DNA from: Escherichia phage ECML-4
Length of the DNA stretch: 64,000 nt
Sequence record: JX128257
Direction: 5' to 3' (one strand)
Part shown: positions 5,902-54,956 of the stretch, in pieces
How positions within the stretch are numbered: the stretch's first letter is position 1
Layout: the number at the start of each line of letters is the position of its first letter
Made by a program: the position numbers and the translations under genes
The notes under the pieces: generated by a model
What the model saw: the letters and a program-made list of their open reading frames with translations, nothing else
What the model was told of the DNA's origin: nothing
Database searches by the model: none

Positions 5902-6114
5902 ATGAAAGTGGTAAACAAGAGATTGCTCGTCACCCAAGGCGGGGCGACGATAGTACGTGGACGGATATATGAACAAACCAAGCTGGGTGATCATAAGACT
6001 CGTCTGACGGTTAAAGCCCCCGACGGCGGTTGGCCAACAAAGGTGATTGTCCCAGACGGCCTCATAGAACGAGGGACGGCGACGTATAAGGGTGCAGAGT
6101 TCAAAATTTATTAA
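5902..6114 (+). CDS. hypothetical protein (70 aa)
   Basis: ORF from track; weak RBS spacing, so existence and start are uncertain. Confidence 0.3.
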   Translation: MKVVNKRLLVTQGGATIVRGRIYEQTKLGDHKTRLTVKAPDGGWPTKVIVPDGLIERGTATYKGAEFKIY

Positions 6115-6131
6115 AATATTTATTGAATAAA

Positions 6132-6160
6132 GTTTACTTCTTCAATAACTGGCGTATACT
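6132..6160 (+). promoter_or_regulatory. T4-early-like sigma70 promoter (GTTTAC-N17-TATACT)
   Basis: GTTTAC at 6132-6137, 17 nt spacer, TATACT at 6155-6160; preceded by palindromic TTATTGAATAA box; about 50 nt upstream of CDS 6210. Confidence 0.5.
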
Positions 6161-6209
6161 TCTAATTGTAGTACGAACAAACAACAATCTGAAGAGAAGG
6201 AAATACATC

Positions 6210-6767
6210 ATGGCAATCGAAATTATCGCTCAATCAAAATCAGGCAAGACTGTAATGTACGGCACTGAAGAAGGCCGCTGTATCATCAACTACGGCACTA
6301 TCACTGGCGAGTCTCCAGAGAAAGGTGGTCGCTATCTGGTTGAGTACGGTTCACGCCTGCTAATGGTAAGCAAAGTCGATGGTCGTGAAATCATGATTCC
6401 TCGTAAAGAATACTTTGACTCACGCTCTGCCGCGATGACTTTCTTCCTCTTCCAGAAACGCCACGAACTCTTCGTTGAAGCGAAAGACGCAGGTCTGGAC
6501 GACGCGACGGCTGAGCTGATTGCCGAAGGTAAAATGACTCTCGAAGCTGCTCTCGGAGACATGGATTGCGAAGCCGAAGCACATTATATTGAATATTCCG
6601 CATATCAGAACGAATGTGAAGATGATCCGGAAGACGACGGATTCGACCCTGACCTCCACGGCGGCGAAGACGATAACACCCCTTCCTTAGAAGTTCTGAT
6701 GGCTGGCGGCCAGGCCGCTTGGGAATGGCAGAACGAGAAGAACGCCTGGCTGGATTCCCGTATCTAA
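6210..6767 (+). CDS. hypothetical protein with acidic C-terminus (185 aa)
   Basis: ATG 6210 preceded by GAAGGAAATACATC; C-terminal region rich in D/E. Confidence 0.55.
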   Translation: MAIEIIAQSKSGKTVMYGTEEGRCIINYGTITGESPEKGGRYLVEYGSRLLMVSKVDGREIMIPRKEYFDSRSAAMTFFLFQKRHELFVEAKDAGLDDATAELIAEGKMTLEAALGDMDCEAEAHYIEYSAYQNECEDDPEDDGFDPDLHGGEDDNTPSLEVLMAGGQAAWEWQNEKNAWLDSRI

Positions 6768-23348: not shown

Positions 23349-25232
23349 ATGATTTCTCAATTCAATCAACCACGCGGCTCCACTTCCATAGAAGTTAACA
23401 AACAATCTATCGCTCGAAATTTCGGTGTCAAAGAAGACGAAGTCATTTATTTCACTGCTGGTATTGATCTCAGTGGATTTAAAGTAATTTATGATGAGTC
23501 TACCCAACGGGCTTATTCTCTCCCTTTCGGTATTGTTTCAGGGACAACTGCAATTAGTCTGGATGAAAGAGCTATCCTCACTCATTCCGCTGGCTCTGTT
23601 GACCTTGGGGAATTAGCAGTAAGCCGCGAAGAATATGTGACTTTACCTGGTTCTTTTAATTTCGGCCATACCATTAATGTGAAAAATGAACTTCTTGTTC
23701 ACGATGATAAAAAATATCGATGGGATGGCACATTACCTAAAGTTGTTCCTGTTGGATCAACTCCTACAACAACTGGGGGAATTGGGGTTGGTGCATGGTT
23801 GAGTGTTGGTGATGCATCGCTACGTGGTGAATTATTTTCAGAATACATCTTATACAAAACACCTCAGGCATTTGGTGCTATTGGTGATGGAGTTGCTGAT
23901 GACACTTTATCACTGCAAGATGCAATGGATTACTGTCAGGTTCACAACGAGAAACTTGTTATCCCATCAGGACGCTATCGAATCACCAAGCCACTGCTAT
24001 ATCGCAACCAGGGTTTTTATAACTATGAGATTGAAGGGCAGGGAGGTGCTGCTGTAATCATCATGGATTCTCTGGAAAAAACTGGAATTACTGCTCCTGA
24101 TGCCTTTGGCGATGATTTTAACGTTAACGCAGCGATGGTAGTTCTGAATGACACTAACCAGAGTAAGTATTGCCGCATTAGTGGATTGCGTTTCGAATCA
24201 CCAGTTGGTGCTGAATATGCTATTTATGTTGGTCAGGCAGAAAATACGTATATCCATGACTGCTTCTGGACTGGTTTCACCTTTGGGTGGTATGACCTTG
24301 GATCATGGGTTACACGCGTAGAACGCTGTATTGCCAGGGATATTGTAGATACTGGGTTCTTTAAGAAAAATGGCACCAGTACCTACATAGCTGAGTGTTA
24401 TGCAGACAGGATGATGCGAGGGTATTACCTCGGGGGTGGGTATTCGGCTATCATAAATTGTGCTTGCGATTTAACCACTCGCTGGGGGTTCTATCTATAT
24501 GGTGGTAGGACTGGTTCTGATTTAGCAACATTCTCTATTAAAGGTTGTGGTTCAGAGCAGTCTGGAACTGATTCTGTATTTTATGTTGACGGGCTAGTTG
24601 CGCTGTCTATAGAGGACCACAACGCAGGTAATGACCCAACTGTTCAACCAGCACCTGCTGCGTTGCTTAGCATGGCTTCGAATACATCATATTCACAAGT
24701 GGTGCTGAAAAATATTAGGACAGTAAATGTGGATACATTAATTTTGGATTCTGCTGACCATAATTATTTTGATTTAACAAATGTCACATGCCGCAGCGAG
24801 ATGTCGAAAGAATTTTATCTCGGTACGAATTCAAGAGTTTTAAAAAGGTCATATGATGGTGAAAGATTCATTACTAGCAACGACCAAGTTGGCATTGGCT
24901 TTGCGGAGTCTGATATTGTTGATGGATGGACAGATCTCACTTTGTCTGGACTAAGAAATGGACAATTTATAATTAGGAGGACTGTAAGCATACCCAGAAC
25001 TTCAGGGGATGCTGGGGCGGTAACTATCACGATGCCATTAAATATGGATACGAATTATACCGTAGCTGCCACTCTGGAGGGTGAATTTAGTCAACTGCAA
25101 TCCATTTGCCCTGTGTTCAGTGTTACAGATAAAACATCATCTAGTTTTTCTTTGTGTGCATCGTCTGCAAAGAATAATACAACATGGTCAGCTATAGATG
25201 TTGAGGTGATTATATATGGGCTGAAATCGTAA
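23349..25232 (+). CDS. tailspike protein (627 aa)
   Basis: N-terminal about 150 aa shared with the 744-aa tailspike (MISQFNQPRGSTSIEVNKQSIARNFG vs MNPQFAQPKGSTSKESNKDSIARKFG; YRWDGTLPKVVP vs YRWNGSLPKVVP). Confidence 0.7.
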   Translation: MISQFNQPRGSTSIEVNKQSIARNFGVKEDEVIYFTAGIDLSGFKVIYDESTQRAYSLPFGIVSGTTAISLDERAILTHSAGSVDLGELAVSREEYVTLPGSFNFGHTINVKNELLVHDDKKYRWDGTLPKVVPVGSTPTTTGGIGVGAWLSVGDASLRGELFSEYILYKTPQAFGAIGDGVADDTLSLQDAMDYCQVHNEKLVIPSGRYRITKPLLYRNQGFYNYEIEGQGGAAVIIMDSLEKTGITAPDAFGDDFNVNAAMVVLNDTNQSKYCRISGLRFESPVGAEYAIYVGQAENTYIHDCFWTGFTFGWYDLGSWVTRVERCIARDIVDTGFFKKNGTSTYIAECYADRMMRGYYLGGGYSAIINCACDLTTRWGFYLYGGRTGSDLATFSIKGCGSEQSGTDSVFYVDGLVALSIEDHNAGNDPTVQPAPAALLSMASNTSYSQVVLKNIRTVNVDTLILDSADHNYFDLTNVTCRSEMSKEFYLGTNSRVLKRSYDGERFITSNDQVGIGFAESDIVDGWTDLTLSGLRNGQFIIRRTVSIPRTSGDAGAVTITMPLNMDTNYTVAATLEGEFSQLQSICPVFSVTDKTSSSFSLCASSAKNNTTWSAIDVEVIIYGLKS

Positions 25233-28706: not shown

Positions 28707-30941
28707 ATGAATCCGCAATTTGCTCAACCAAAAGGTTCTACTTCAAAAGAATCGAACAAAGACAGTATTGCTCGTAAATTTGGGTGTAAAAAGTCGGAAG
28801 TCGTTTATGCGAAATCAGGACAGTCCTTGTCTGGATATAAGGTTATTTATGACAAGGAAACACAGAGAGCGTATTCCTTGCCTGTAGATATTCCAGCAGG
28901 AACCACGGCTATTAGCCTTAGCGCCAGTGCTCTGCTTGTACACTCTGGGGGTTCTGTAGACCTGGGCGAACTAGCTTCCCAACGCAATGAATATAATGTA
29001 TTACCTGGTTCTTTTACTACTGGTGCAATAGTATCCACAAAGAATGATGTACTTACCCACAATGGTATCCAGTATCGTTGGAATGGTTCATTACCTAAAG
29101 TTGTACCTCAGAACTCTTTACCATCCAGTGATGATAATTGGATTGGCTTGGGTGCTTCTTATCTGAAGGAACAGCTTAACAGTACCAGTGGTGCATCCAT
29201 GGTAGTACTGGCTAATGGCAAAACCATTGAAGAAGAATTTGCCGAAGAAGCTGCATGGCAGAACCAAGAGAATATGGTGAGAACCGTTATTCCTAATGTT
29301 TATCACCATATCCGTGGCGTTCAGCGTCACTCTGGTAAAAACTTAGCATGGTCTGCTCCAGACGTTGCTATTGATAAACTTAACCCTACGGATACCGTCT
29401 TCTACCGTATGCCCCAGATTGTTAAAACTGGTGATGGTACTCTGATGATTTTCTGTAATGAGTTGCATGGTAACAATACAGATATTGGTGCTACTCCAGA
29501 TCAGCAATGTAATATCGTTATGAAATACTCCATTGATAATGGGTGGTCTTGGTCGGCTAAGGTAGTGGTAGCTAACTTTGGGGCTACGTATCAGAACGGT
29601 GAGATTGCTGCTGTGTATAACCCAGTAGATGGTCGGGTATACTGTTACTTTACTTCCTGCAAAGGCCAGTTGGGTTGGGGATACTCACAGCCAGGCAATG
29701 ACCCTAATACATCATCCCAGATATATGTTACCTACTGTGATGCGGAAGCTCCTACTATATGGCGTACACCAGCTAACATTACTGCTACCCTTAAGCCAGC
29801 AACGGCAGATTTTATCTGGACTTCACCAACTAAACCAGTTGTTTTACCGGATGGTAAGATGGCAATGATTGTGTCTACCGTCACTGGTTCACGGGTTGAT
29901 TCTTTCCTTACCATCATGAAGTATGACATTAAGTACAGCATGGACTACGTACTTAGTTCCGAAGAATCTGGTGGGGAAGTCGGACTGAACCTTTTGCCGG
30001 ATGGTCGTATGGTGATGAACTCTCGTGCTTACCACACCACAGACCTTAAAGGGCTTCAGAAATTCTATATCAGTGATCATCAGTTTAAGAACTGGCAGCA
30101 CTTATCTGATTTAGTTACATCGGATAGTAAGGGTGACCTGGTTCCTATTTTTGATGGGGTTAATGGTGTTCTTACTTGGGCGTTTACTTGTGCTAATGGT
30201 GTAGGTGATAATTCTATTGGTCGTACTAACTACCGAGTATGGATTAGTCGTGACCTAGTTACTTGGGGGTTAGCTCCTACTGGGGATATCAACACAAGTG
30301 ATTCTGTTGGGTACATCGCATCAATGCCTGGTGGTGATGATGGTTATGTAATCTCTACATCTGAATCAGGTGGTTTTGGTGGTATTTGGTTTACTCAATG
30401 GAATGCTAAGTATATCCAGAACAGAAACTACAACCGCTATCACAAAGAGTTGCGAGAATTAGAGTCAGTAGATGAAACAGCAATGCTCGCATCCGGCGCT
30501 ATTCCTAACTACTCTTTTTACGTAAACAAAGACTCCAACCTAATTAACTTCAACCGCAACGGTACTCCAGTTAAGATTCAGCAATTGGGGGTTAGTCAGA
30601 ATGCTGTTGATAAGTACACTACAACTCAGACCCTAGCATCTATTCCTGTAGATGGTGTTGATATTGTATTAGTCACTGGTTCCGGTATTACTCTTACCCT
30701 TAGTGGGTTTAGCGGTGGATATATGGGCCAGCGTGTGACAGTTATCTCTGATTCATCTGGTGGTGGGGTAGTGCTTAAACGTGCTGATACAACATTGCCT
30801 ACTGTAACGGACAGATTCCACTTTAATGTGGCAGGAGCCTTTACTGCTTTGAGGGTAGACTATGCAACTAAGATGATGGTTACTTTAGTTAAGACTCCAT
30901 CTGGTTGGTTCACGGAAAGTATTGCTAACGTAACAATCTAA
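28707..30941 (+). CDS. tailspike protein with sialidase-like (BNR/Asp-box) domain (744 aa)
   Basis: Shared N-terminal module with the 627-aa tailspike; YRMP motif resembling the sialidase (F/Y)RIP motif, followed by Asp-box SIDNGWSW (SxDxGxTW pattern). Confidence 0.65.
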   Translation: MNPQFAQPKGSTSKESNKDSIARKFGCKKSEVVYAKSGQSLSGYKVIYDKETQRAYSLPVDIPAGTTAISLSASALLVHSGGSVDLGELASQRNEYNVLPGSFTTGAIVSTKNDVLTHNGIQYRWNGSLPKVVPQNSLPSSDDNWIGLGASYLKEQLNSTSGASMVVLANGKTIEEEFAEEAAWQNQENMVRTVIPNVYHHIRGVQRHSGKNLAWSAPDVAIDKLNPTDTVFYRMPQIVKTGDGTLMIFCNELHGNNTDIGATPDQQCNIVMKYSIDNGWSWSAKVVVANFGATYQNGEIAAVYNPVDGRVYCYFTSCKGQLGWGYSQPGNDPNTSSQIYVTYCDAEAPTIWRTPANITATLKPATADFIWTSPTKPVVLPDGKMAMIVSTVTGSRVDSFLTIMKYDIKYSMDYVLSSEESGGEVGLNLLPDGRMVMNSRAYHTTDLKGLQKFYISDHQFKNWQHLSDLVTSDSKGDLVPIFDGVNGVLTWAFTCANGVGDNSIGRTNYRVWISRDLVTWGLAPTGDINTSDSVGYIASMPGGDDGYVISTSESGGFGGIWFTQWNAKYIQNRNYNRYHKELRELESVDETAMLASGAIPNYSFYVNKDSNLINFNRNGTPVKIQQLGVSQNAVDKYTTTQTLASIPVDGVDIVLVTGSGITLTLSGFSGGYMGQRVTVISDSSGGGVVLKRADTTLPTVTDRFHFNVAGAFTALRVDYATKMMVTLVKTPSGWFTESIANVTI

Positions 30942-41880: not shown

Positions 41881-43776
41881 ATGGCAACTCAAAGCTTCAG
41901 CGTTGCGCCGTCCGTACAGTGGACTGAGCGTGATGCCACGCTTCAGACTTCTCCGTCCGTGGTTGTTCAGGGCGCGACAGTCGGCAAATTTCAATGGGGT
42001 GAAGTCGAACTCCCAGTGCTGGTGACTGGTGGTGAGACGGGTTTGGTGAAGAAATTCTTCAAACCTAATGACAGCACTGCGACAGATTTCCTTGTGATTG
42101 CAGACTTTTTGTCTTACAGCTCTATGGCATGGGTCACTCGTGTTGTTGGTCCTCTGGCCAAGAACTCTGTCACCAAAGGCCAGACAGCCATCACGATCAA
42201 AAACAAGCTGGATTTTGAAACAGCAAGTCCGTCAGCGTCTATCACTTGGGCTGGTCGTTATCCAGGATCTCTGGGGAATGACATCGCCATCAATGTTTGT
42301 GACTCCGCTGGATTCCCGACATGGGAATTCCGTAACAACTTTGCGTACGCACCTCAGTCTGGTGAATTCCATGTTGTGGTTGTAGACAAAGTTGGGCGCA
42401 TTACTGACTCTGCAGGCGCAGTCGGTCAGGTTGACCGTATATCTGTTTCTGGCACGGCAACTGCAGCTGGCACCATCAGTGTGGCAGGTGAAGATATCGC
42501 ATATCTGGATACTGATACTCCGGCCACTTTGGCGACCAAAATTGGCGCGGCGCTGACGGCGCTAACAGATGTTTATTCTTCTGTCGTTGTTAAGTCTAAC
42601 ACTGTCATCGTGACCCATAAAGCTATTGGTCCCCAGACAGTTACTGCTATTGTTCCAGATGATAAGGGGCTGACTGCAACCGCCGTGATTACCACTGTTG
42701 GTGCATCTGGTTCTATTATCGAAAAATACGAACTCATGCAGAACACACAGGGTTCCAAAAAGTCCGATGGCGCGAATGCGTACTTCAAAGATGTCATCAA
42801 TGATACATCAAATTGGGTGTACACCTTCGCTACCGCTCTGGCCGCAGATGTTGTTGAATTAGAAGGCGGCGTAGACGACTACAATATCAACCGTGTCGCG
42901 GCTATCCAAGTTCTGAACAATGCCGAAGCATATGATGCGAAGCCAGTATTTGCATACTGTGAAGAGTTGATTGAACAACAGGCATTAATCGACTTGTCTA
43001 CCGAGCGAAAAGACACCGTTTCCTTCGTGTCGCCTTTGCGTGATACCGTGGTCGGCAACCGTGGCCGTGAGATGGACGATGTGGTCGCTTGGCGTGAAAG
43101 TCTGGTGCGCGACTCCTCCTATTTCTTCATGGACGACAACTGGGCATACGTGTACGATAAATACAACGATAAGATGCGCTGGATCCCTGCTTGCGGCGGT
43201 ACAGCGGGTGTTTGGGCACGTAGTATTGAAATCGCGGGTATCTACAAATCTCCTGCGTTCCACAACCGTGGCAAATACAACAACTACAATCGAATGGCGT
43301 GGTCTGCGTCTTCCGATGAACGTGCCGTGTTGTACCGCAACCAGATTAACAGCATCGTGACCTTCTCCAATGAAGGTATCGTGTTGTATGGTGACAAAAC
43401 TGGTCTGACACGTCCGTCTGCTTTCGATCGTATCAATGTTCGCGGTCTGTTTATTATGGCAGAACAGAACATCGCTGCAATCGCCAAATATTACCTTGGT
43501 GAGAACAATGATGCGTTCACTCGCAGTCTGTTCAGCAACGCTGTTCGTCCTTATATTCGCCAGCTGGCAAATATGGGCGCGATCTACGATGGTAAAGTCA
43601 AGTGTGACGAAGATAACAACACTGCTGACGTTATTGCGGCAAACCAGATGGTCGCTGGTATCTGGCTGAAACCGGAATACAGCATTAATTGGATCTACTT
43701 GGATTTTGCTGCCGTTCGACCGGACATGGAGTTCAGCGAGATCGAGTCCGGCGGCGGTATCGTCGCGGCGTCCTAA
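41881..43776 (+). CDS. tail sheath protein (T4 gp18-like)
   Basis: GKFQWG near the N-terminus and C-terminal FDRINVRGLF ... NDAFTRS ... SINWIYLDFAA closely parallel T4 gp18; start ATG 41881 after AGGAA; CTAAATATC box upstream. Confidence 0.8.
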   Translation: MATQSFSVAPSVQWTERDATLQTSPSVVVQGATVGKFQWGEVELPVLVTGGETGLVKKFFKPNDSTATDFLVIADFLSYSSMAWVTRVVGPLAKNSVTKGQTAITIKNKLDFETASPSASITWAGRYPGSLGNDIAINVCDSAGFPTWEFRNNFAYAPQSGEFHVVVVDKVGRITDSAGAVGQVDRISVSGTATAAGTISVAGEDIAYLDTDTPATLATKIGAALTALTDVYSSVVVKSNTVIVTHKAIGPQTVTAIVPDDKGLTATAVITTVGASGSIIEKYELMQNTQGSKKSDGANAYFKDVINDTSNWVYTFATALAADVVELEGGVDDYNINRVAAIQVLNNAEAYDAKPVFAYCEELIEQQALIDLSTERKDTVSFVSPLRDTVVGNRGREMDDVVAWRESLVRDSSYFFMDDNWAYVYDKYNDKMRWIPACGGTAGVWARSIEIAGIYKSPAFHNRGKYNNYNRMAWSASSDERAVLYRNQINSIVTFSNEGIVLYGDKTGLTRPSAFDRINVRGLFIMAEQNIAAIAKYYLGENNDAFTRSLFSNAVRPYIRQLANMGAIYDGKVKCDEDNNTADVIAANQMVAGIWLKPEYSINWIYLDFAAVRPDMEFSEIESGGGIVAAS

Positions 43777-49494: not shown

Positions 49495-50817
49495 ATGACT
49501 AAGAAACTTGTAACCGAAGAAATGCGCAAACAGTGGCTGCCAGTTCTCCAAAAAGAATCTGAAGCCATCCAACCTCTGTCTGCCGAAAACGTAACCATCC
49601 GTCTGATGCAAAACCAGGCCGAGTGGAACGCTAAAAACCTGGGCGAATCCGACGCTCCTGGTTCTGTAAACAGCACTGTCGGTAAATGGCAGCCAGTCCT
49701 GATCGACATGGCAAAACGTCTGGCGCCGATCAACATCGCAATGGACTTCTTCGGCGTTCAGCCGCTGTCTGGTCCTGATGGTCAGATCTTCGCACTGCGT
49801 GCTCGCCAAGGCGTTGGTGACGGTTCTACTACCGCTCAGGCGCGTAAAGAACTGTTCATGAACGAAGCCGATTCTGGCTACTCTGGTGATGGCACTGTAC
49901 AGGCTGGCGACCCGTCAGGCTTCAGTCAGGCTGAGATCGAAGGTTCCGGCTCTGTCGTGACCACTATCGGTAAAGGTATGCCGTCAACCGACGCGGAACT
50001 GCTGGGTACTACCACCAATCCGTGGGCGCGTGTTGGTATCACCGTTCAGAAAGCGACCGTTACTGCCAAGTCTCGCGGCCTGTATGCTGATTACAGCCAT
50101 GAACTGCGTCAGGATATGATGGCAATTCACGGCGAAGACGTGGACAATATCCTGTCTGACGTGATGGTAACTGAAATTCAGGCGGAAATGAACCGTGAAT
50201 TCATCCGCACCATGAACTTCAGTGCTGTTCGTTTCAAAAAATTCGGCACCAACGGTGTTGTTGATATCGCGCAGGACATCTCCGGTCGTTGGGCGCTGGA
50301 AAAATGGAAATTCCTGACTTTCATGCTGGAAGTCGAAGCGAATGGTATCGGCGTTGACACCCGTCGTGGTAAAGGCAACCGTGTTCTGTGTTCTCCGAAC
50401 GTGGCGTCTGCTCTGGCGATGTCCGGCATGCTGGACTATGCTCCGGTTCTGCAGGAAAACACCAAACTGGCTGTTGACCCGACTGGTCAGACCTTCGCGG
50501 GTGTTCTGTCCAACGGTATGCGCGTCTATGTTGACCCGTATGCTGTAGCAGAATATATCACCCTGGCGTACAAAGGCGCGACTGCGCTGGATGCTGGTAT
50601 CTTCTTCGCACCGTATGTGCCGCTGGAAATGTACCGCACCCAGGGTGAAACCACCTTCGCTCCGCGTATGGCGTTCAAAACCCGTTACGGCATCTGTGCT
50701 AACCCGTTCGTTCAGATTCCGGCTAACCAAGACCCGCAGGTTTACGTGACTGCTGACGGTATTGCTCAAGACAGCAACCCATACTTCCGTAAAGGTCTCA
50801 TCAAATCTCTGTTCTAA
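49495..50817 (+). CDS. major capsid protein (T4 gp23-like)
   Basis: FFGVQPLSGPDGQIFALRA, ELRQDMMAIHGEDVDNILSDVMVTEIQAEMNRE, VYVDPYAVAEYITLAYKGATALDAGIFFAPYV, AFKTRYGICANPFV all parallel T4 gp23. Confidence 0.95.
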   Translation: MTKKLVTEEMRKQWLPVLQKESEAIQPLSAENVTIRLMQNQAEWNAKNLGESDAPGSVNSTVGKWQPVLIDMAKRLAPINIAMDFFGVQPLSGPDGQIFALRARQGVGDGSTTAQARKELFMNEADSGYSGDGTVQAGDPSGFSQAEIEGSGSVVTTIGKGMPSTDAELLGTTTNPWARVGITVQKATVTAKSRGLYADYSHELRQDMMAIHGEDVDNILSDVMVTEIQAEMNREFIRTMNFSAVRFKKFGTNGVVDIAQDISGRWALEKWKFLTFMLEVEANGIGVDTRRGKGNRVLCSPNVASALAMSGMLDYAPVLQENTKLAVDPTGQTFAGVLSNGMRVYVDPYAVAEYITLAYKGATALDAGIFFAPYVPLEMYRTQGETTFAPRMAFKTRYGICANPFVQIPANQDPQVYVTADGIAQDSNPYFRKGLIKSLF

Positions 50818-50837
50818 TCAACAGATTTTGATAAACA

Positions 50838-50866
50838 AACCCCGCCATGTGCGGGGTTTTTCTTTA
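50838..50866 (+). terminator. strong rho-independent terminator after the capsid gene
   Basis: AAACCCCGC-CATGT-GCGGGGTTT followed by TTCTTTAT. Confidence 0.75.
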
Positions 50867-51823: not shown

Positions 51824-52198
51824 ATGAGCAATTTACCACTGCTTCAAGTCGGTGACGTATTCATTCTCACGGCAGAAATGACCGTTGAAACTCAGGTGCC
51901 AAAGCATTTCTTGTATTCTAATTGCAAGGGTGATTGGCAAATGGACTCTGGTTATATCACCCCTGAGGGATTCTTCGGTTACATGCAAGGACATTACGTC
52001 GTTACCAAAACAGCCCTACAAGGCGGTAGCACTGGTCATGATCCATACCCTGACGGCCATCATGTTTGGGCGCAGCATACCGAAAATGAACGCATCAGAA
52101 TCTGTTTCTATCAGACAGGTAGTTTCAGGAATATGCACCGGAATGTTCCAGTAGTCGGAAAGGCTAAGGCGCAAACATGGACTTGGGAGAAATTATGA
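51824..52198 (+). CDS. hypothetical protein (124 aa)
   Basis: Complete ORF. Confidence 0.5.
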   Translation: MSNLPLLQVGDVFILTAEMTVETQVPKHFLYSNCKGDWQMDSGYITPEGFFGYMQGHYVVTKTALQGGSTGHDPYPDGHHVWAQHTENERIRICFYQTGSFRNMHRNVPVVGKAKAQTWTWEKL

Positions 52199-52431
52199 AA
52201 ATCAAAAAGATAGGTGCAAGCCCATTGACGGGAACAATCTTCCAGGGCACTTTGAACACCAAGACCAGTATGTGGGTCGGTGAGAAGACTGATGTGACTA
52301 ACGACTGTGTAGCGGCTACGGCTGAACACATGCGTCACATCAAGAAAGACTACTGCTTCCCTACTAAAGACGGCAAGTTCCTGGTGCTGAGCGCTGAGGT
52401 TCACGACACCCTTCCTGATCGCTTCAAATAA
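52196..52431 (+). CDS. hypothetical protein (78 aa)
   Basis: ATG 52196 after GGAGAAATT; ATGA overlap with upstream stop. Confidence 0.45.
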
Positions 52432-52456
52432 ATTTAAAATTTATTCAATAAACGGG

Positions 52457-52485
52457 GTTTACTTCTTCAATAAACCCCGTATACT
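52457..52485 (+). promoter_or_regulatory. T4-early-like promoter (GTTTAC-N17-TATACT), near-identical copy of the element at 6132
   Basis: GTTTAC 52457-52462, 17-nt spacer, TATACT 52480-52485; -35 lies inside hairpin CGGGGTTT ... AAACCCCG; preceded by TTATTCAATAA. Confidence 0.5.
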
Positions 52486-52534
52486 TCATTCCATAAGCAG
52501 CACAATACTGACTCTGAAATGAAGGAAATATATC

Positions 52535-52801
52535 ATGGCACGTTCAATCCACGATTTTAAAGACTCCGATATCCTGGCTTTCATTATGGATGGTCGCATG
52601 GTAGTTGTAAATGACGGTAACGACCGCCACAACACTACTCTGGTGATGAACAACGAAGTTGTTTACAGCAACACCCGCGAAGGCATGATTAAGATGCTTC
52701 AGAATCCTCATCGCTTCGGCGACAAAATGCACAAAGATTACAAAAGCCGCTGCCCAATGCTGGCACAACGCCTGGCCTGGGCAATGCAAAACGCCGCCTG
52801 A
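52535..52801 (+). CDS. hypothetical protein (88 aa)
   Basis: ATG after GAAGGAAATATATC, same context as the gene at 6210. Confidence 0.5.
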   Translation: MARSIHDFKDSDILAFIMDGRMVVVNDGNDRHNTTLVMNNEVVYSNTREGMIKMLQNPHRFGDKMHKDYKSRCPMLAQRLAWAMQNAA

Positions 52802-52848
52802 TCAACAAGCCCCTGCAGGGGCTTCCCCAAATTTGAAGGAACTATATC

Positions 52849-53178
52849 ATGACTTTTAAAGGCTTCGTGGCATTTGACGCCACCAAAACAAACGTACTCA
52901 GCAACCCACAGCTGGAAACCATCACTGAAATGCGCCAGTGGGTGATGAAAATCACTGGCCACCAAACTCGCAAAGACCTGGAGGCCGAGTTCTATATCGA
53001 ACCTGCCGAGGTTTACTTCAACCGTCCTGTTGACGAACCGTTCATTCGTCAAGATCTTGACGATAACGATATCACGCTGTCTGTGTTCTCTGAAGCCAAG
53101 GCTGATATGATCGTAGACGGTCTGTGTGACGAGTCCTTCACATACGATGAATACTGTGATCAGTGCCAAGACCTGTGA
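52849..53178 (+). CDS. hypothetical protein (109 aa), acidic
   Basis: ATG after GAAGGAACTATATC. Confidence 0.5.
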   Translation: MTFKGFVAFDATKTNVLSNPQLETITEMRQWVMKITGHQTRKDLEAEFYIEPAEVYFNRPVDEPFIRQDLDDNDITLSVFSEAKADMIVDGLCDESFTYDEYCDQCQDL

Positions 53179-53247
53179 TTTGTTCTAAACCTTTGAACGA
53201 GGTATGTTAAGCGCATACCCTATCCCTTACAAATAGAGGACTTTATC

Positions 53248-53573: not shown

Positions 53574-53996
53574 ATGAAGAAGTATATCGTTCTTATAACG
53601 GGTTCCCGTTCTATAACTGAGCGGGACAAAATATTTGCCAAATTAGATGAACTCTTAATCCCTCACGAGATAGAGACGTTTATTGAAGGTGAAGCAGTGG
53701 GTGTGGATCTGATATCCCGTGATTGGTGTGAAATCAATTATGTGCATATCACACCAATGCCGATTCCTCAAAATTACCATACGTTATATGGGAAAGGTGC
53801 GGGCAATCAACGTAACAAAGATATGCTGGACAAGGCTCTAACATTGGCGAAGCAAAAAGATCTTGAGGTCTTTGGAATTGCATTATGGGATGGTTCGTCT
53901 ACTGGGACGCAAGACATGATCAAGCGCATGAAGAAAGCGGGAATAAATGTCAATATCACTCTCATGGGCAAACCCAAAACCAAACGATTGTTATAA
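53574..53996 (+). CDS. SLOG-superfamily protein (DUF2493 / YspA-like, tentative)
   Basis: ITGSRS ... GEAVGVDLISRDWCE ... YGKGAGNQRNKDML ... LWDGSSTGTQDMIKRMKKAG pattern resembles the Rossmannoid SLOG/DUF2493 signature. Start ATG 53574. Confidence 0.45.
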   Translation: MKKYIVLITGSRSITERDKIFAKLDELLIPHEIETFIEGEAVGVDLISRDWCEINYVHITPMPIPQNYHTLYGKGAGNQRNKDMLDKALTLAKQKDLEVFGIALWDGSSTGTQDMIKRMKKAGINVNITLMGKPKTKRLL

Positions 53997-54197: not shown

Positions 54198-54224
54198 TTA
54201 AATACCCCCAAAATTGGGGGTATT
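54198..54224 (+). promoter_or_regulatory. late-promoter-like TTAAATA box embedded in 12-bp perfect inverted repeat
   Basis: AAATACCCCCAA-AA-TTGGGGGTATTT, 3 nt before ATG 54228. Confidence 0.5.
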
Positions 54225-54227
54225 TTT

Positions 54228-54956
54228 ATGAACGCACAAATCTATGATGTCCTTTCCTCTGGCAATGCATTTAGCAATCCGCTTCCATCCCTCTCCGGTC
54301 CTTCTCAGGATTTAATAACCAGTGGCATCACCAATATACCATTGATAACTGCCAACGCTACTCCGGAGATGCAGGCGGCTATGGCAGCTGGTGGACTAAC
54401 ACCAGAAAAACTCACAGCAGCCAGCACCATGTATAGCACCGCCAACACAGGGATAACAACTCTGAACACATATGGCGACCAAAGTATCAATGACGCGTAT
54501 TCTCGCATCGGTACTTCCGTGTCATACAAATCAGGTCTGAAGGGTATATCACGAGAGCCAAACAATTGTGATTTGATCAACAAGGCTTTTGGTGTTGTTC
54601 AGGATTTAGGACGCCAATGGCTGAATGCTATGGAAGGCGCTCTACAGACCGTAACAAACAAGATATCGGAATTGTATGAGATGATCATGGAAGGTGCCTC
54701 AGAAGGAATGGCAAAGCTGCAGGAATTGGCTGCAGAAGTAACGGGACACATCAATACTGCGATAACCGCAGTCAACGGGGTTATAAGTGATATTACAGAT
54801 GGTATAGCCGCAGAACTTGCTCACATTGAAAGTATGATCAAAGAGTGCTTGAATTTCTCTTTTGCTAACGTGCTCGGGGAATGGGCTAAAGATCTGTGCG
54901 CCGGAGGTGTTATTGACAAAATAGGGACTCCAGCATTAAAAGAATCCCTGAAATAA
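54228..54956 (+). CDS. hypothetical protein (242 aa), probably late-expressed
   Basis: Preceded by the late-promoter/hairpin cassette; Ala/Thr/Gly-rich. Confidence 0.55.
   Translation: MNAQIYDVLSSGNAFSNPLPSLSGPSQDLITSGITNIPLITANATPEMQAAMAAGGLTPEKLTAASTMYSTANTGITTLNTYGDQSINDAYSRIGTSVSYKSGLKGISREPNNCDLINKAFGVVQDLGRQWLNAMEGALQTVTNKISELYEMIMEGASEGMAKLQELAAEVTGHINTAITAVNGVISDITDGIAAELAHIESMIKECLNFSFANVLGEWAKDLCAGGVIDKIGTPALKESLK

What the first reader, a model, noticed from the sequence alone, without database searches (positions are those of the whole stretch)
52444..52536. Second copy of the early-promoter cassette with the -35 element inside a hairpin
Here the GTTTAC box lies inside a perfect 8-bp hairpin (CGGGGTTT ... 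AAACCCCG) with a T-poor tail, so the same element could terminate or attenuate upstream transcription while promoting downstream initiation.
Basis: seen in the sequence. Interest (0 to 1): 0.4.

Follow-up and report, generated by a model that had tools for sequence, protein, structure and literature searches.

The report
Mobile promoter-hairpin cassette, ViI-like phage
A 103-base spacer in a ViI-like (Kuttervirus) phage joins a host-type early promoter to a stem-loop and sits, almost unchanged in over 230 related phages, exactly where small genes of unknown function are swapped; T4-like phages have the same design ("PeSL" cassettes), so this is a new example, not a new kind.

Summary
The stem is a perfect 10 bp (52452-61/52471-80) with a 9-nt loop and no T-tract. 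GTTTAC lies in its 5' arm and TATACT starts at its last base. A paralogous cassette lies at 6109-6215, and a third lies elsewhere in the genome.

The window is a Kuttervirus (Ackermannviridae), 99.8% identical to phage 3HA11. The 46-nt core is identical in 233 of 263 phage records from at least four genera, while the adjacent coding DNA falls to 71-76% identity. Homology between phages breaks at the cassette's 3' edge (the ATG). The slot behind it holds at least four unrelated ORFan families, or is empty. In Det7 versus Dickeya phage XF4, a recently exchanged block starts at the cassette's 5' edge.

This anatomy matches the promoter-early stem-loop (PeSL) cassettes of T4-like phages. Other annotators have already called the same sequence an "early promoter" (LIMEstone1 record) and a "terminator" (KWBSE43-6 record).

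Promoter function is well supported by comparison. Terminator or attenuator function is plausible but untested, and it is weak by canonical criteria. I found no transcript data.

Verdict: a new member of a known kind, of modest interest.

The parts
52177..52431 (+). Upstream gene (DUF7446 / phrog_1578); its TAA stop at 52429-52431 lies at the start of the AT-rich stretch that opens the cassette
   Evidence: only 71-76% nucleotide identity between genera
52432..52534 (+). The whole cassette: a 103-nt intergenic spacer running from the stop codon to the ATG
   Evidence: 99.6 bits to the family model; 90-100% identical across Kuttervirus, Limestonevirus, Agtrevirus and Taipeivirus
52432..52451 (+). 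AT-rich UP-element-like stretch (ATTTAAAATTTATTCAATAA); it contains TTCAATAA, which recurs in the promoter spacer
   Evidence: sequence; 75% A+T in the 40 nt before GTTTAC; the UP-element reading is inference
52452..52480 (+). Perfect 10-bp stem with a 9-nt loop (ACGGGGTTTA cttcttcaa TAAACCCCGT), -14.0 kcal/mol
   Evidence: annotated as an ARNOLD terminator in the KWBSE43-6 record
52457..52463 (+). -35 element GTTTAC(T), of the T4-early type
   Evidence: annotated minus_35_signal 'putative early promoter' in LIMEstone1
52480..52485 (+). -10 element TATACT; its first T is the last base of the stem
   Evidence: annotated minus_10_signal in LIMEstone1
52492..52493 (+). Predicted transcription start, 7-8 nt after the -10 (a purine at the 8th base in c1, c2 and c3)
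   Evidence: inference from the sequence; not measured
52484..52524 (+). Second, weaker hairpin, CUUCAUU (52484-90) / AAUGAAG (52518-24). It covers part of the Shine-Dalgarno and could form only in read-through RNA, because its 5' arm lies upstream of the predicted start
   Evidence: P(unpaired) of the SD is 0.33 in read-through RNA against 0.60 in promoter-initiated RNA; speculative
52521..52537 (+). Conserved translation-initiation region GAAGGAAATATATCATG (SD plus ATG). The motif AGGAAnTAnAnnATG occurs 9 times in the genome, each immediately before a start codon and most next to a cassette-like promoter or a hairpin
52535..53178 (+). Variable gene slot. Here it holds an 88-aa ORFan (52535-52801, phrog_16902), a palindromic hairpin AAGCCCCtgcaGGGGCTT (52807-52824) followed by a second conserved TIR, and a 109-aa ORF (52849-53178) whose C-terminus matches phrog_6516
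   Evidence: homology to other phages stops at 52537-52540 and resumes at 53045-53179 in five of the six phages compared
6109..6215 (+). Paralogous cassette copy 1, next to the divergently transcribed DNA polymerase gene. It has the same promoter core and TIR. The G4/C4 hairpin is absent; an AT-rich inverted repeat TTATTGAA/TTCAATAA flanks the -35 instead
   Evidence: (91.4 bits)

Best explanation
The element is a PeSL-type composite regulatory cassette of an Ackermannviridae phage. I infer four functions.

(1) In double-stranded DNA, the AT-rich upstream stretch plus GTTTAC(T)-16/17-TATACT is a T4-early-type promoter read by host sigma-70 RNA polymerase straight after infection. Transcription would start near 52492-52493 and express whichever small accessory gene sits behind the cassette.

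(2) In RNA arriving from the upstream genes, the same bases fold into a 10-bp, -14 kcal/mol stem-loop that ends almost exactly where the new transcript begins. This would attenuate or pause read-through and cap the upstream mRNA's 3' end, insulating the slot from upstream transcription. Because there is no U-tract, I expect partial rather than complete termination.

(3) The roughly 40-nt leader and the conserved SD/ATG context supply a ready-made translation start.

(4) Because the roughly 105 bp are nearly identical between copies and between phage genera, the cassette acts as a portable patch of homology. Co-infecting phages recombine at it, so that ORFans are replaced, or move together with their promoter.

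What is shown: the anatomy, the paralogy, the conservation and the recombination junctions. What is inferred: promoter activity, timing, attenuation and the recombination mechanism.
For: Anatomy: the spacer runs stop codon, AT-rich stretch, -35, G4/C4 stem-loop, -10, leader, SD and ATG.

Family in this genome: three strong copies score 88-100 bits and at least four weaker relatives were found. Among diverged members, the invariant blocks are TT.AC and GTATA.T at fixed spacing.

Hairpin position varies, as in the five PeSL subclasses (PMC2839356). In c3 and at L002:37379, a GC hairpin sits just 5' of (C)TTTAC, so that TTTACTTCTT / TTTACTTTTG is its T-tract. Other hairpins lie upstream of the promoter, between the -10 and the SD, or, as in c2, across the -35 and the spacer.

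Independent annotations: early promoter in LIMEstone1; terminator in KWBSE43-6; the c3 orthologue is listed as an early promoter in AG3 Table S2.

Conservation: the 46-nt core is 100% identical in 233 of 263 records. The cassette is 90-100% identical where the upstream CDS is 73-76%.

Junctions: 260 of 262 matching records do not extend past the cassette, and most listed matches end at window 52537-52540. Breaks fall at 52537/52540 in all six phages compared, and homology resumes at 53045-53179 in five of them.

Slot content: phrog_16902+6516, 6516, 10263 or 17538, none with a Pfam match, or empty (LHE287 and A221). The distribution does not follow taxonomy. For Det7 versus XF4, the upstream gene is 71% identical, the cassette 97% and the slot gene 95%, and the high-identity block starts at the cassette's 5' edge. 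Junctions also fall at the 3' edges of c1 and c3.

Promoter type: the hexamers match the T4/PST PeSL consensus TTTACW...TAYWAT.
Against: I found no transcript data for any Ackermannviridae phage.

The promoter matches only 9 of 12 positions with a 16-nt spacer. Matches of that quality are not enriched.

The hairpin has a 9-nt loop and no U-tract. The scan used here does not call it a terminator and the Menlow record lists none there.

The stem never varies, so there is no covariation, and its conservation cannot be separated from that of the promoter it overlaps. Copy 1 works, if at all, without the GC hairpin.

There are only about 3 strong copies, dispersed over 158 kb, rather than the dense clusters described in RB49.

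The right edge of the slot (53179-53247) is not a second cassette, so the PeSL excision model with a flanking pair is not met at this locus.

ViI-type DNA carries hypermodified thymidines (PMC5889632, listed; the paper itself was not read). Recognition of T-rich boxes may therefore differ from that on plain DNA.
Confidence: 0.62

Rival explanations
1. Promoter only. The cassette is an early promoter plus leader, and the G4/C4 inverted repeat is a relic of cassette rearrangement with no function in RNA. It could derive from a c3-like ancestor that lost the loop and 3' arm of its upstream terminator, or from slippage between the two TTCAATAA(A) repeats.
For: c2 aligns with c3 apart from a 10-nt gap that removes CGTTTGCCCC, and the spacer differs by only two substitutions (ACCCACG against AACCCCG). 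The arms CGGGGTTT/AAACCCCG are the swapped arms of a terminator stem that recurs in this genome (AAACCCCGC...GCGGGGTTT at 50837-50859 and at two other sites). There is no U-tract and the loop is long. Copy 1 lacks the GC hairpin.
Against: Perfect 10-bp hairpins are rare (6 observed against 0.7 expected). Two specific substitutions are needed to make the complement perfect. The stem is intact in every variant examined, while changes fall in the loop or the flanks. Almost every family member carries some GC hairpin.
Confidence: 0.22
2. Operator. The 10-bp inverted repeat, with arm centres 19 bp apart and covering the -35 to -10 region, is the binding site of a dimeric phage or host DNA-binding protein that switches this one early promoter off or on.
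For: The position and symmetry are those of a classic repressor site. The loop and flanks are conserved as strictly as the stem, as expected for a DNA site rather than an RNA helix. The U-tract is lacking.
Against: The paralogous cassettes c1 and c3 do not carry this palindrome. The half-site occurs elsewhere mainly as arms of ordinary terminators. No candidate regulator was identified. GC-run stems flanked by A/T are this phage's usual terminator style.
Confidence: 0.06
3. Translational gating. The important RNA structure is the second hairpin (52484-90 / 52518-24). It masks the SD only in read-through transcripts, so the slot gene is translated only from RNA started at its own promoter. T4 uses this logic for genes e, soc and I-TevI (from my own knowledge).
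For: The 5' arm lies upstream of the predicted start. The SD is less accessible in read-through RNA in all three copies (0.33 vs 0.60, 0.51 vs 0.65, 0.33 vs 0.47). One aligned pair is A-U in c2 and U-A in c1. Taipeivirus copies carry a C-to-U change that closes the C.A mismatch.
Against: The differences in accessibility are small. The c3 sequence does not keep the pairing. The support is one compensatory pair between two paralogues. The hairpin is weak and could be opened by ribosomes.
Confidence: 0.1

Closest known systems
PeSL (promoter-early stem-loop) mobile regulatory cassettes of T4-like phages (RB49/phi1, T4/PST, KVP40/nt-1; Arbiol et al. 2010, PMC2839356; Comeau et al. 2014, PMC4122927)
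   Same: Both are repeated intergenic motifs of about 100 bp running from stop codon to ATG. Both have an AT-rich upstream part, sigma-70-type boxes, a polyG/polyC stem-loop in variable register (including overlap with the -35 or a position between the boxes), and a 3' SD plus ATG. Both flank ORFans, and replacement junctions between related genomes fall at the motif. The hexamers fit the T4/PST PeSL consensus TTTACW...TAYWAT.
   Different: The host lineage is Ackermannviridae, not Straboviridae, and no paper in the searched library links PeSLs to ViI-like phages. There are only about 3 strong copies per genome, dispersed rather than clustered. The spacer is 16 nt rather than 17. Conservation is far stronger (an identical 46-nt core across four genera). 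The right side of this slot has no partner cassette. No functional assays or mini-circle data exist.
T4 early promoters (UP / -35 / TGn / -10 'uber' promoters; Hinton 2010, PMC2988021)
   Same: Both have an A/T-rich upstream region and a GTTTAC-type -35 (from my own knowledge of the T4 consensus; LIMEstone1's authors annotated the orthologue by similarity to T4 boxes). Both presumably use unmodified host sigma-70 polymerase immediately after infection.
   Different: There is no TGn extended -10 (the sequence is CCG TATACT). The -10 is TATACT and the spacer is short. ViI-like phages lack the proteins T4 uses for early and middle regulation, including MotA and AsiA, according to the CBA120 paper (PMC3184105), whose authors could not identify early promoters.
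Rho-independent (intrinsic) terminators
   Same: Both have a GC-rich perfect stem directly after a stop codon. ARNOLD scored the identical sequence as a terminator in phage KWBSE43-6. Sister cassettes (c3 and L002:37379) carry textbook terminators whose T-tract is the -35 box.
   Different: The loop is 9 nt. The tail AUACUUCAUUCC has no U-run. The site is not found by the scan used here, and the Menlow record lists no terminator there.

Membership tests
PeSL cassette | [quoted passage not shown] | tested here: met
   The spacer is 103 nt. Three copies score 88-100 bits to one model, and weaker relatives exist.
PeSL cassette | Sigma-70-like -35 and -10 boxes preceded by an AT-rich region | tested here: met
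   TTTACT-16-TATACT matches 9 of 12. The boxes are the invariant blocks among paralogues. The 40 nt upstream are 75% A+T. The hexamers fit the T4/PST PeSL consensus.
PeSL cassette | Stable stem-loop with G and C tracts in one of five registers relative to the promoter | tested here: met
   The stem is 10 bp at -14.0 kcal/mol, overlapping the -35 and filling the spacer. Other registers are seen in sister copies.
PeSL cassette | Shine-Dalgarno and start codon at the 3' end | tested here: met
   GAAGGAAATATATCATG. The same TIR motif recurs 9 times in the genome, each at a start codon.
PeSL cassette | Association with variable ORFans; insertion, deletion or replacement junctions between related genomes fall at the motif | tested here: met
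   Breaks fall at 52537-52540 in 260 of 262 records and in all six phages compared. Four PHROG families, or nothing, occupy the slot. In Det7/XF4 the exchanged block starts at the 5' edge.
PeSL cassette | Dense clustering of many copies in hyperplastic regions, with cassettes flanking the mobile ORFan on both sides | tested here: not met
   About 3 strong and 4-5 weak copies are spread over 158 kb. The right edge of the slot, 53179-53247, is not a cassette. Only a hairpin plus TIR lies between the two slot ORFs.
PeSL cassette | Demonstrated promoter and terminator activity; formation of mini-circles | not testable with these tools
   Needs reporter assays, transcript-end mapping and inverse PCR.
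Intrinsic terminator | GC-rich stem, loop of 3-8 nt, followed by a U-rich tract | tested here: not met
   The stem qualifies. The loop is 9 nt and the first 8 tail bases hold only 3 T (ATACTTCA). The site is absent from the terminator scan. The ARNOLD call in a relative's record is the only support.
Sigma-70 / T4-early-type promoter | Hexamers at 16-18 nt spacing, above chance, with a mapped start site | tested here: inconclusive
   The hexamers and spacing are present and conserved. The match alone is not above chance (30 found against 24.2 expected). No start-site data are available.

The most novel reading that the evidence does not exclude
The cassette is a 'plug-in socket' used across the Ackermannviridae. 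It would be an almost invariant 105-bp docking sequence through which phages of different genera (hosts Salmonella, Escherichia, Klebsiella, Dickeya and Enterobacter) exchange immediate-early accessory genes together with their expression signals. Its hairpin-inside-the-promoter geometry would insulate transcription without a U-tract. If so, cassette-adjacent slots would be a systematic way to find host-takeover or anti-defence genes in this family, and the PeSL mechanism would be older and broader than the T4-like phages.
Probability: 0.3. Interest if true: 0.5.

Novelty: new member of a known kind. Interest (0 to 1): 0.35.

Why it matters
The CBA120 paper reported that early promoters of ViI-like phages could not be identified (PMC3184105). 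This family of cassettes gives a concrete, conserved candidate set of promoters.

The result also extends the PeSL idea beyond the T4-likes: expression signals that double as recombination sites for ORFan shuffling. It does so in a family widely used for biocontrol and therapy (CBA120, Det7, LIMEstone and others).

The slots marked by the cassettes are natural places to look for accessory genes. They are also convenient, naturally tolerated insertion sites for phage engineering.

The element is not a new kind of mechanism, and every functional claim still needs transcript mapping.

Tried and rejected
- Exact 16-mer scan of IMG/VR. TTTACTTCTTCAATAA is too AT-rich and short, and nearly all 120 loci were unrelated chance hits. 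I switched to the annotated phage collection.
- Rfam search of 52300-52700. The only hit was a mir-205 match on the minus strand at 23 bits against a gathering score of 55, which is chance.
- Covariation test of the hairpin. It is impossible, because every orthologue fetched has an identical stem.
- Pfam for the slot proteins. There were no hits. PHROGs gave only families of unknown function.
- Literature search for Kuttervirus or Ackermannviridae transcriptomics or start-site maps. Nothing was found.
- Minus-strand terminator reading. The minus-strand tail (TTATTGAATAAATTTT) is only moderately T-rich. All neighbouring genes are on the + strand, and an 11-bp bidirectional terminator at 54200-54225 already stands between this site and the nearest minus-strand gene. 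Rejected.
- Second promoter-like site 52508-52536 (CTGACT-17-TATCAT). Its -10 overlaps the ATG, so it was dismissed as a chance match.
- SD-masking hairpin idea. It is kept only as a weak rival.
- Orthologous locus in the distant Serratia phage 2050H1. The DUF7446 gene was not found there, so no orthologous c2 exists to compare, although related cassettes are present.

Full report
**What the window is.** A 1.4-kb query around the finding is 99.8% identical to Escherichia phage vB_EcoM_3HA11 (MN342150; Ackermannviridae, Kuttervirus) and matches 262 phage records. The finding lies 1.6 kb downstream of the major capsid gene (49495-50817), in a run of small + strand ORFs. It is the 103-nt spacer between a DUF7446 gene (52177-52431) and an 88-aa ORF (52535-52801).

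**The observation.** The hairpin alone folds at -14.0 kcal/mol. GTTTAC (52457-62) lies in the 5' arm, and TATACT (52480-85) starts at the last stem base. The scan reports TTTACT-16-TATACT, matching 9 of 12. The tail is T-poor, and the terminator scan does not list the site.

Perfect hairpins of 10 bp or more are rare. Six occur in the reconstructed 158.5-kb genome, against a mean of 0.7 in shuffles. The other hairpins of 9 bp or more are mostly canonical A-stem-T terminators with loops of 3-8 nt. The promoter match on its own is not above chance (30 sites against 24.2 expected).

**Paralogues.** The 'first copy' is at 6109-6215. It shares the exact 17-mer GTTTACTTCTTCAATAA, CGTATACTTC and the leader/TIR TCTGAA..GAAGGAAATAnATCATGGCA. 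I fetched the rest of the 3HA11 genome and built a sequence-only model from the copies. That search found a third strong copy (L002 24113-24225, record about 64.6 kb) and weaker relatives at L002 37394, 30930, 48612 and 7541.

Among the diverged members, the invariant blocks are TT.AC and GTATA.T at fixed spacing, which is the signature of a promoter family. Nearly every member carries a GC-rich hairpin, but in different registers:
- In c3 and at L002:37379, the hairpin sits immediately 5' of (C)TTTAC, so the -35 box and the following Ts form its T-tract. This makes a textbook terminator fused to a promoter.
- Elsewhere the hairpin lies upstream of the promoter or between the -10 and the SD.
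- In c2 it spans the -35 and the spacer.
- In c1 only an AT-rich inverted repeat, TTATTGAA/TTCAATAA, flanks the -35.

**Conservation.** The cassette occurs in 281 phage records, typically at three places per genome. The hosts are Salmonella, Escherichia, Shigella, Klebsiella, Dickeya and Enterobacter. The genera seen are Kuttervirus, Limestonevirus, Agtrevirus and Taipeivirus.

At the c2 locus the 103-nt spacer is 90-100% identical to the window in Vi01, CBA120, Det7, XF4, EspM4VN and Menlow. The last 232 nt of the upstream gene fall to 73-76% identity in the other genera. The 46-nt core (52446-52491) is 100% identical in 233 of 263 records.

In the three variants I inspected, the changes fall in the loop, the upstream flank or downstream of the -10, and never in the stem. 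This is too few to be a test, and there is no covariation to analyse.

**Recombination junctions.** Of the 262 records matching the 1.4-kb query, only two continue past the cassette. Most of the listed matches end at window 52537-52540, which is the ATG. Local BLAST against six phages places the left break at 52537/52540 in all six. Homology resumes at 53178/9 in four of them, at 53045 in CBA120, and only at 53880 in Menlow.

The slot holds different contents in different phages:
- phrog_16902 plus a chimeric ORF with a phrog_6516 C-terminus in this phage;
- phrog_6516 in Vi01 and CBA120;
- phrog_10263 in Det7 and XF4;
- phrog_17538 in Menlow and EspM4VN;
- nothing in LHE287 and A221.

All of these proteins lack a Pfam match. 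The distribution cuts across genera. Det7 (Kuttervirus) and XF4 (Limestonevirus) are 71% identical in the upstream gene but 97% in the cassette and 95% in the slot gene. The block of about 830 bp at mostly 88-100% identity starts at the cassette's 5' edge, so cassette and gene moved as a unit. The c1 and c3 loci also show matches that end at the cassette's 3' edge, or that comprise the cassette alone.

**Comparison with what is known.** This anatomy is that of the PeSLs of T4-like phages. Those have an AT-rich region, sigma-70-type boxes and a polyG/polyC stem-loop in one of five registers, including overlap with the -35 or a position between the boxes. They end in an SD plus ATG, extend about 100 bp, flank ORFans and mark indel or replacement junctions. 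Promoter and terminator activity were shown by lacZ fusions (PMC2839356). The T4/PST PeSL promoter consensus TTTACW-N17-TAYWAT (PMC4122927) fits TTTACT...TATACT/TATAAT, with a spacer one base shorter.

No paper in the searched library connects PeSLs with ViI-like phages. The CBA120 and AG3 papers tentatively identified only eight promoters each by similarity to the sigma-70 consensus, and the CBA120 authors stated that they could not identify early promoters (PMC3184105; PMC3121705).

The LIMEstone1 record marks the identical GTTTAC and TATACT as a 'putative early promoter'. The KWBSE43-6 record marks CGGGGTTTACTTCTTCAATAAACCCCG as an ARNOLD terminator at -11.3. AG3 Table S2 lists the c3 orthologue as an early promoter. 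The Menlow record, which does annotate terminators, lists none at this site.

**Mechanism and confidence.** My best explanation (0.62) is a composite cassette with four roles:
- a host-polymerase early promoter for the slot gene;
- an RNA stem-loop that attenuates or caps read-through from the upstream genes right where the new transcript starts;
- a conserved leader and TIR;
- a conserved homology patch that mediates exchange of ORFans.

The anatomy, paralogy, conservation and junctions are shown. Promoter activity, timing, attenuation and the recombination mechanism are inferred.

Several points weaken the attenuator part: there is no U-tract, the loop is long, copy 1 has no GC hairpin, and the stem's conservation cannot be separated from that of the promoter. 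The rivals are a promoter with a relic hairpin (0.22), SD-masking in read-through RNA through a second weak hairpin (0.10) and an operator palindrome (0.06).

Membership in the PeSL class is met for five sequence-level features. It is not met for dense clustering and flanking pairs. It is untestable for activity.

**Verdict.** The element belongs to a known class, and its two halves were already annotated separately in relatives. What appears to be new is that this class exists, with extreme conservation, in Ackermannviridae, and that it marks gene-swap slots. Interest is 0.35.

Noticed in passing
L133 (Escherichia phage LHE287) 1201-1400; L139 (Escherichia phage A221) 401-590: In both phages the slot behind the cassette is empty: the cassette runs straight into the sequence that follows the slot in the window (from 53179). 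Both carry the same -35 change GTTTAC to GTTTAA, while the 10-bp stem stays intact. This may be decay or down-tuning of a promoter that no longer has its own gene, or a single shared ancestral event.
   Followed up: partly
L131 (Serratia phage 2050H1) about 2500-2595; L136 12408-12490: In Miltonvirus the related cassettes have an inverted repeat that brackets the -10 and start region instead of the -35. The arms differ between the two paralogues in a complementary way (GTGGGC/GCCCAC against TGGGGCT/AGCCCCA). This is the only covariation-like signal seen for any hairpin of the family.
   Followed up: partly
L141 (Citrobacter phage Miller) 520-600 and 860-947; L142 (Yersinia phage JC221) 520-603: The 88-aa slot ORFan (phrog_16902, starting MARS/MART) has homologues at 44-45% amino-acid identity in true T4-like Straboviridae. 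There it follows DNA ligase and is preceded by a terminator hairpin plus a repeated leader (GATACATTACACACATCGAAACGAAACA...AAGGAAC) whose SD context resembles the Ackermannviridae TIR. The same ORFan therefore sits behind regulatory cassettes in two phage families.
   Followed up: partly
window 52807-52848: Between the two slot ORFs lies a fully palindromic hairpin, AAGCCCCtgcaGGGGCTT, with no T-tract. It is followed by a second copy of the conserved TIR (TTTGAAGGAACTATATCATG) with no recognisable promoter. This suggests the slot was filled in two steps, or that the TIR alone can serve as a junction.
   Followed up: no
window 52849-53178: The 109-aa ORF looks chimeric. Only residues 59-109 match phrog_6516 (profile positions 106-144), and nucleotide homology to CBA120 resumes inside it at 53045. 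The right-hand recombination junction of this lineage therefore lies within a gene.
   Followed up: partly
window 51829-52191: The 124-aa ORF 51824-52198 is absent from Det7, XF4 and EspM4VN, where the flanks abut directly. This is a second indel about 300 bp upstream of the cassette, and it has no cassette at its edges.
   Followed up: no
window 50837-50859; 3HA11 record 43541-43561 and 68334-68355: The strong terminator after the major capsid gene (AAACCCCGC catgt GCGGGGTTT plus a T-tract) recurs with nearly the same stem at two other places. Its arms are the same 8-mers as the c2 hairpin arms but in the opposite order.
   Followed up: partly
window 54200-54225: An 11-bp perfect hairpin, AAATACCCCCA aaat TGGGGGTATTT, ends 2 nt before the ATG of the 242-aa gene at 54228, which is an 'unknown structural protein' in LIMEstone. 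It looks like a bidirectional terminator placed directly against a start codon.
   Followed up: no
window 11600-12863 (minus strand): A cluster of five tRNA genes (Ile-GAT, Ser-GCT, Tyr-GTA, Asn-GTT, Met-CAT). The CBA120 paper lists Met, Asn, Ile and Ser plus a 'degenerate' tRNA, so the fifth may be the Tyr gene called here.
   Followed up: partly
window 23625-23750 and 28983-29108: Two stretches about 75% identical occur 5358 bp apart (repeat families D4 and D11), presumably shared modules of neighbouring tailspike genes.
   Followed up: no
window 6124-6148; L002 30937-30964: The upstream motif TTATTGAATAA (c1 and L002:30930) and TTATTCAATAA (c2 and c3) differ only at the centre of a palindrome. 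With G, the motif forms an inverted repeat with the spacer's TTCAATAA. With C, it forms a direct repeat. Either a protein site or a slippage substrate is possible.
   Followed up: no
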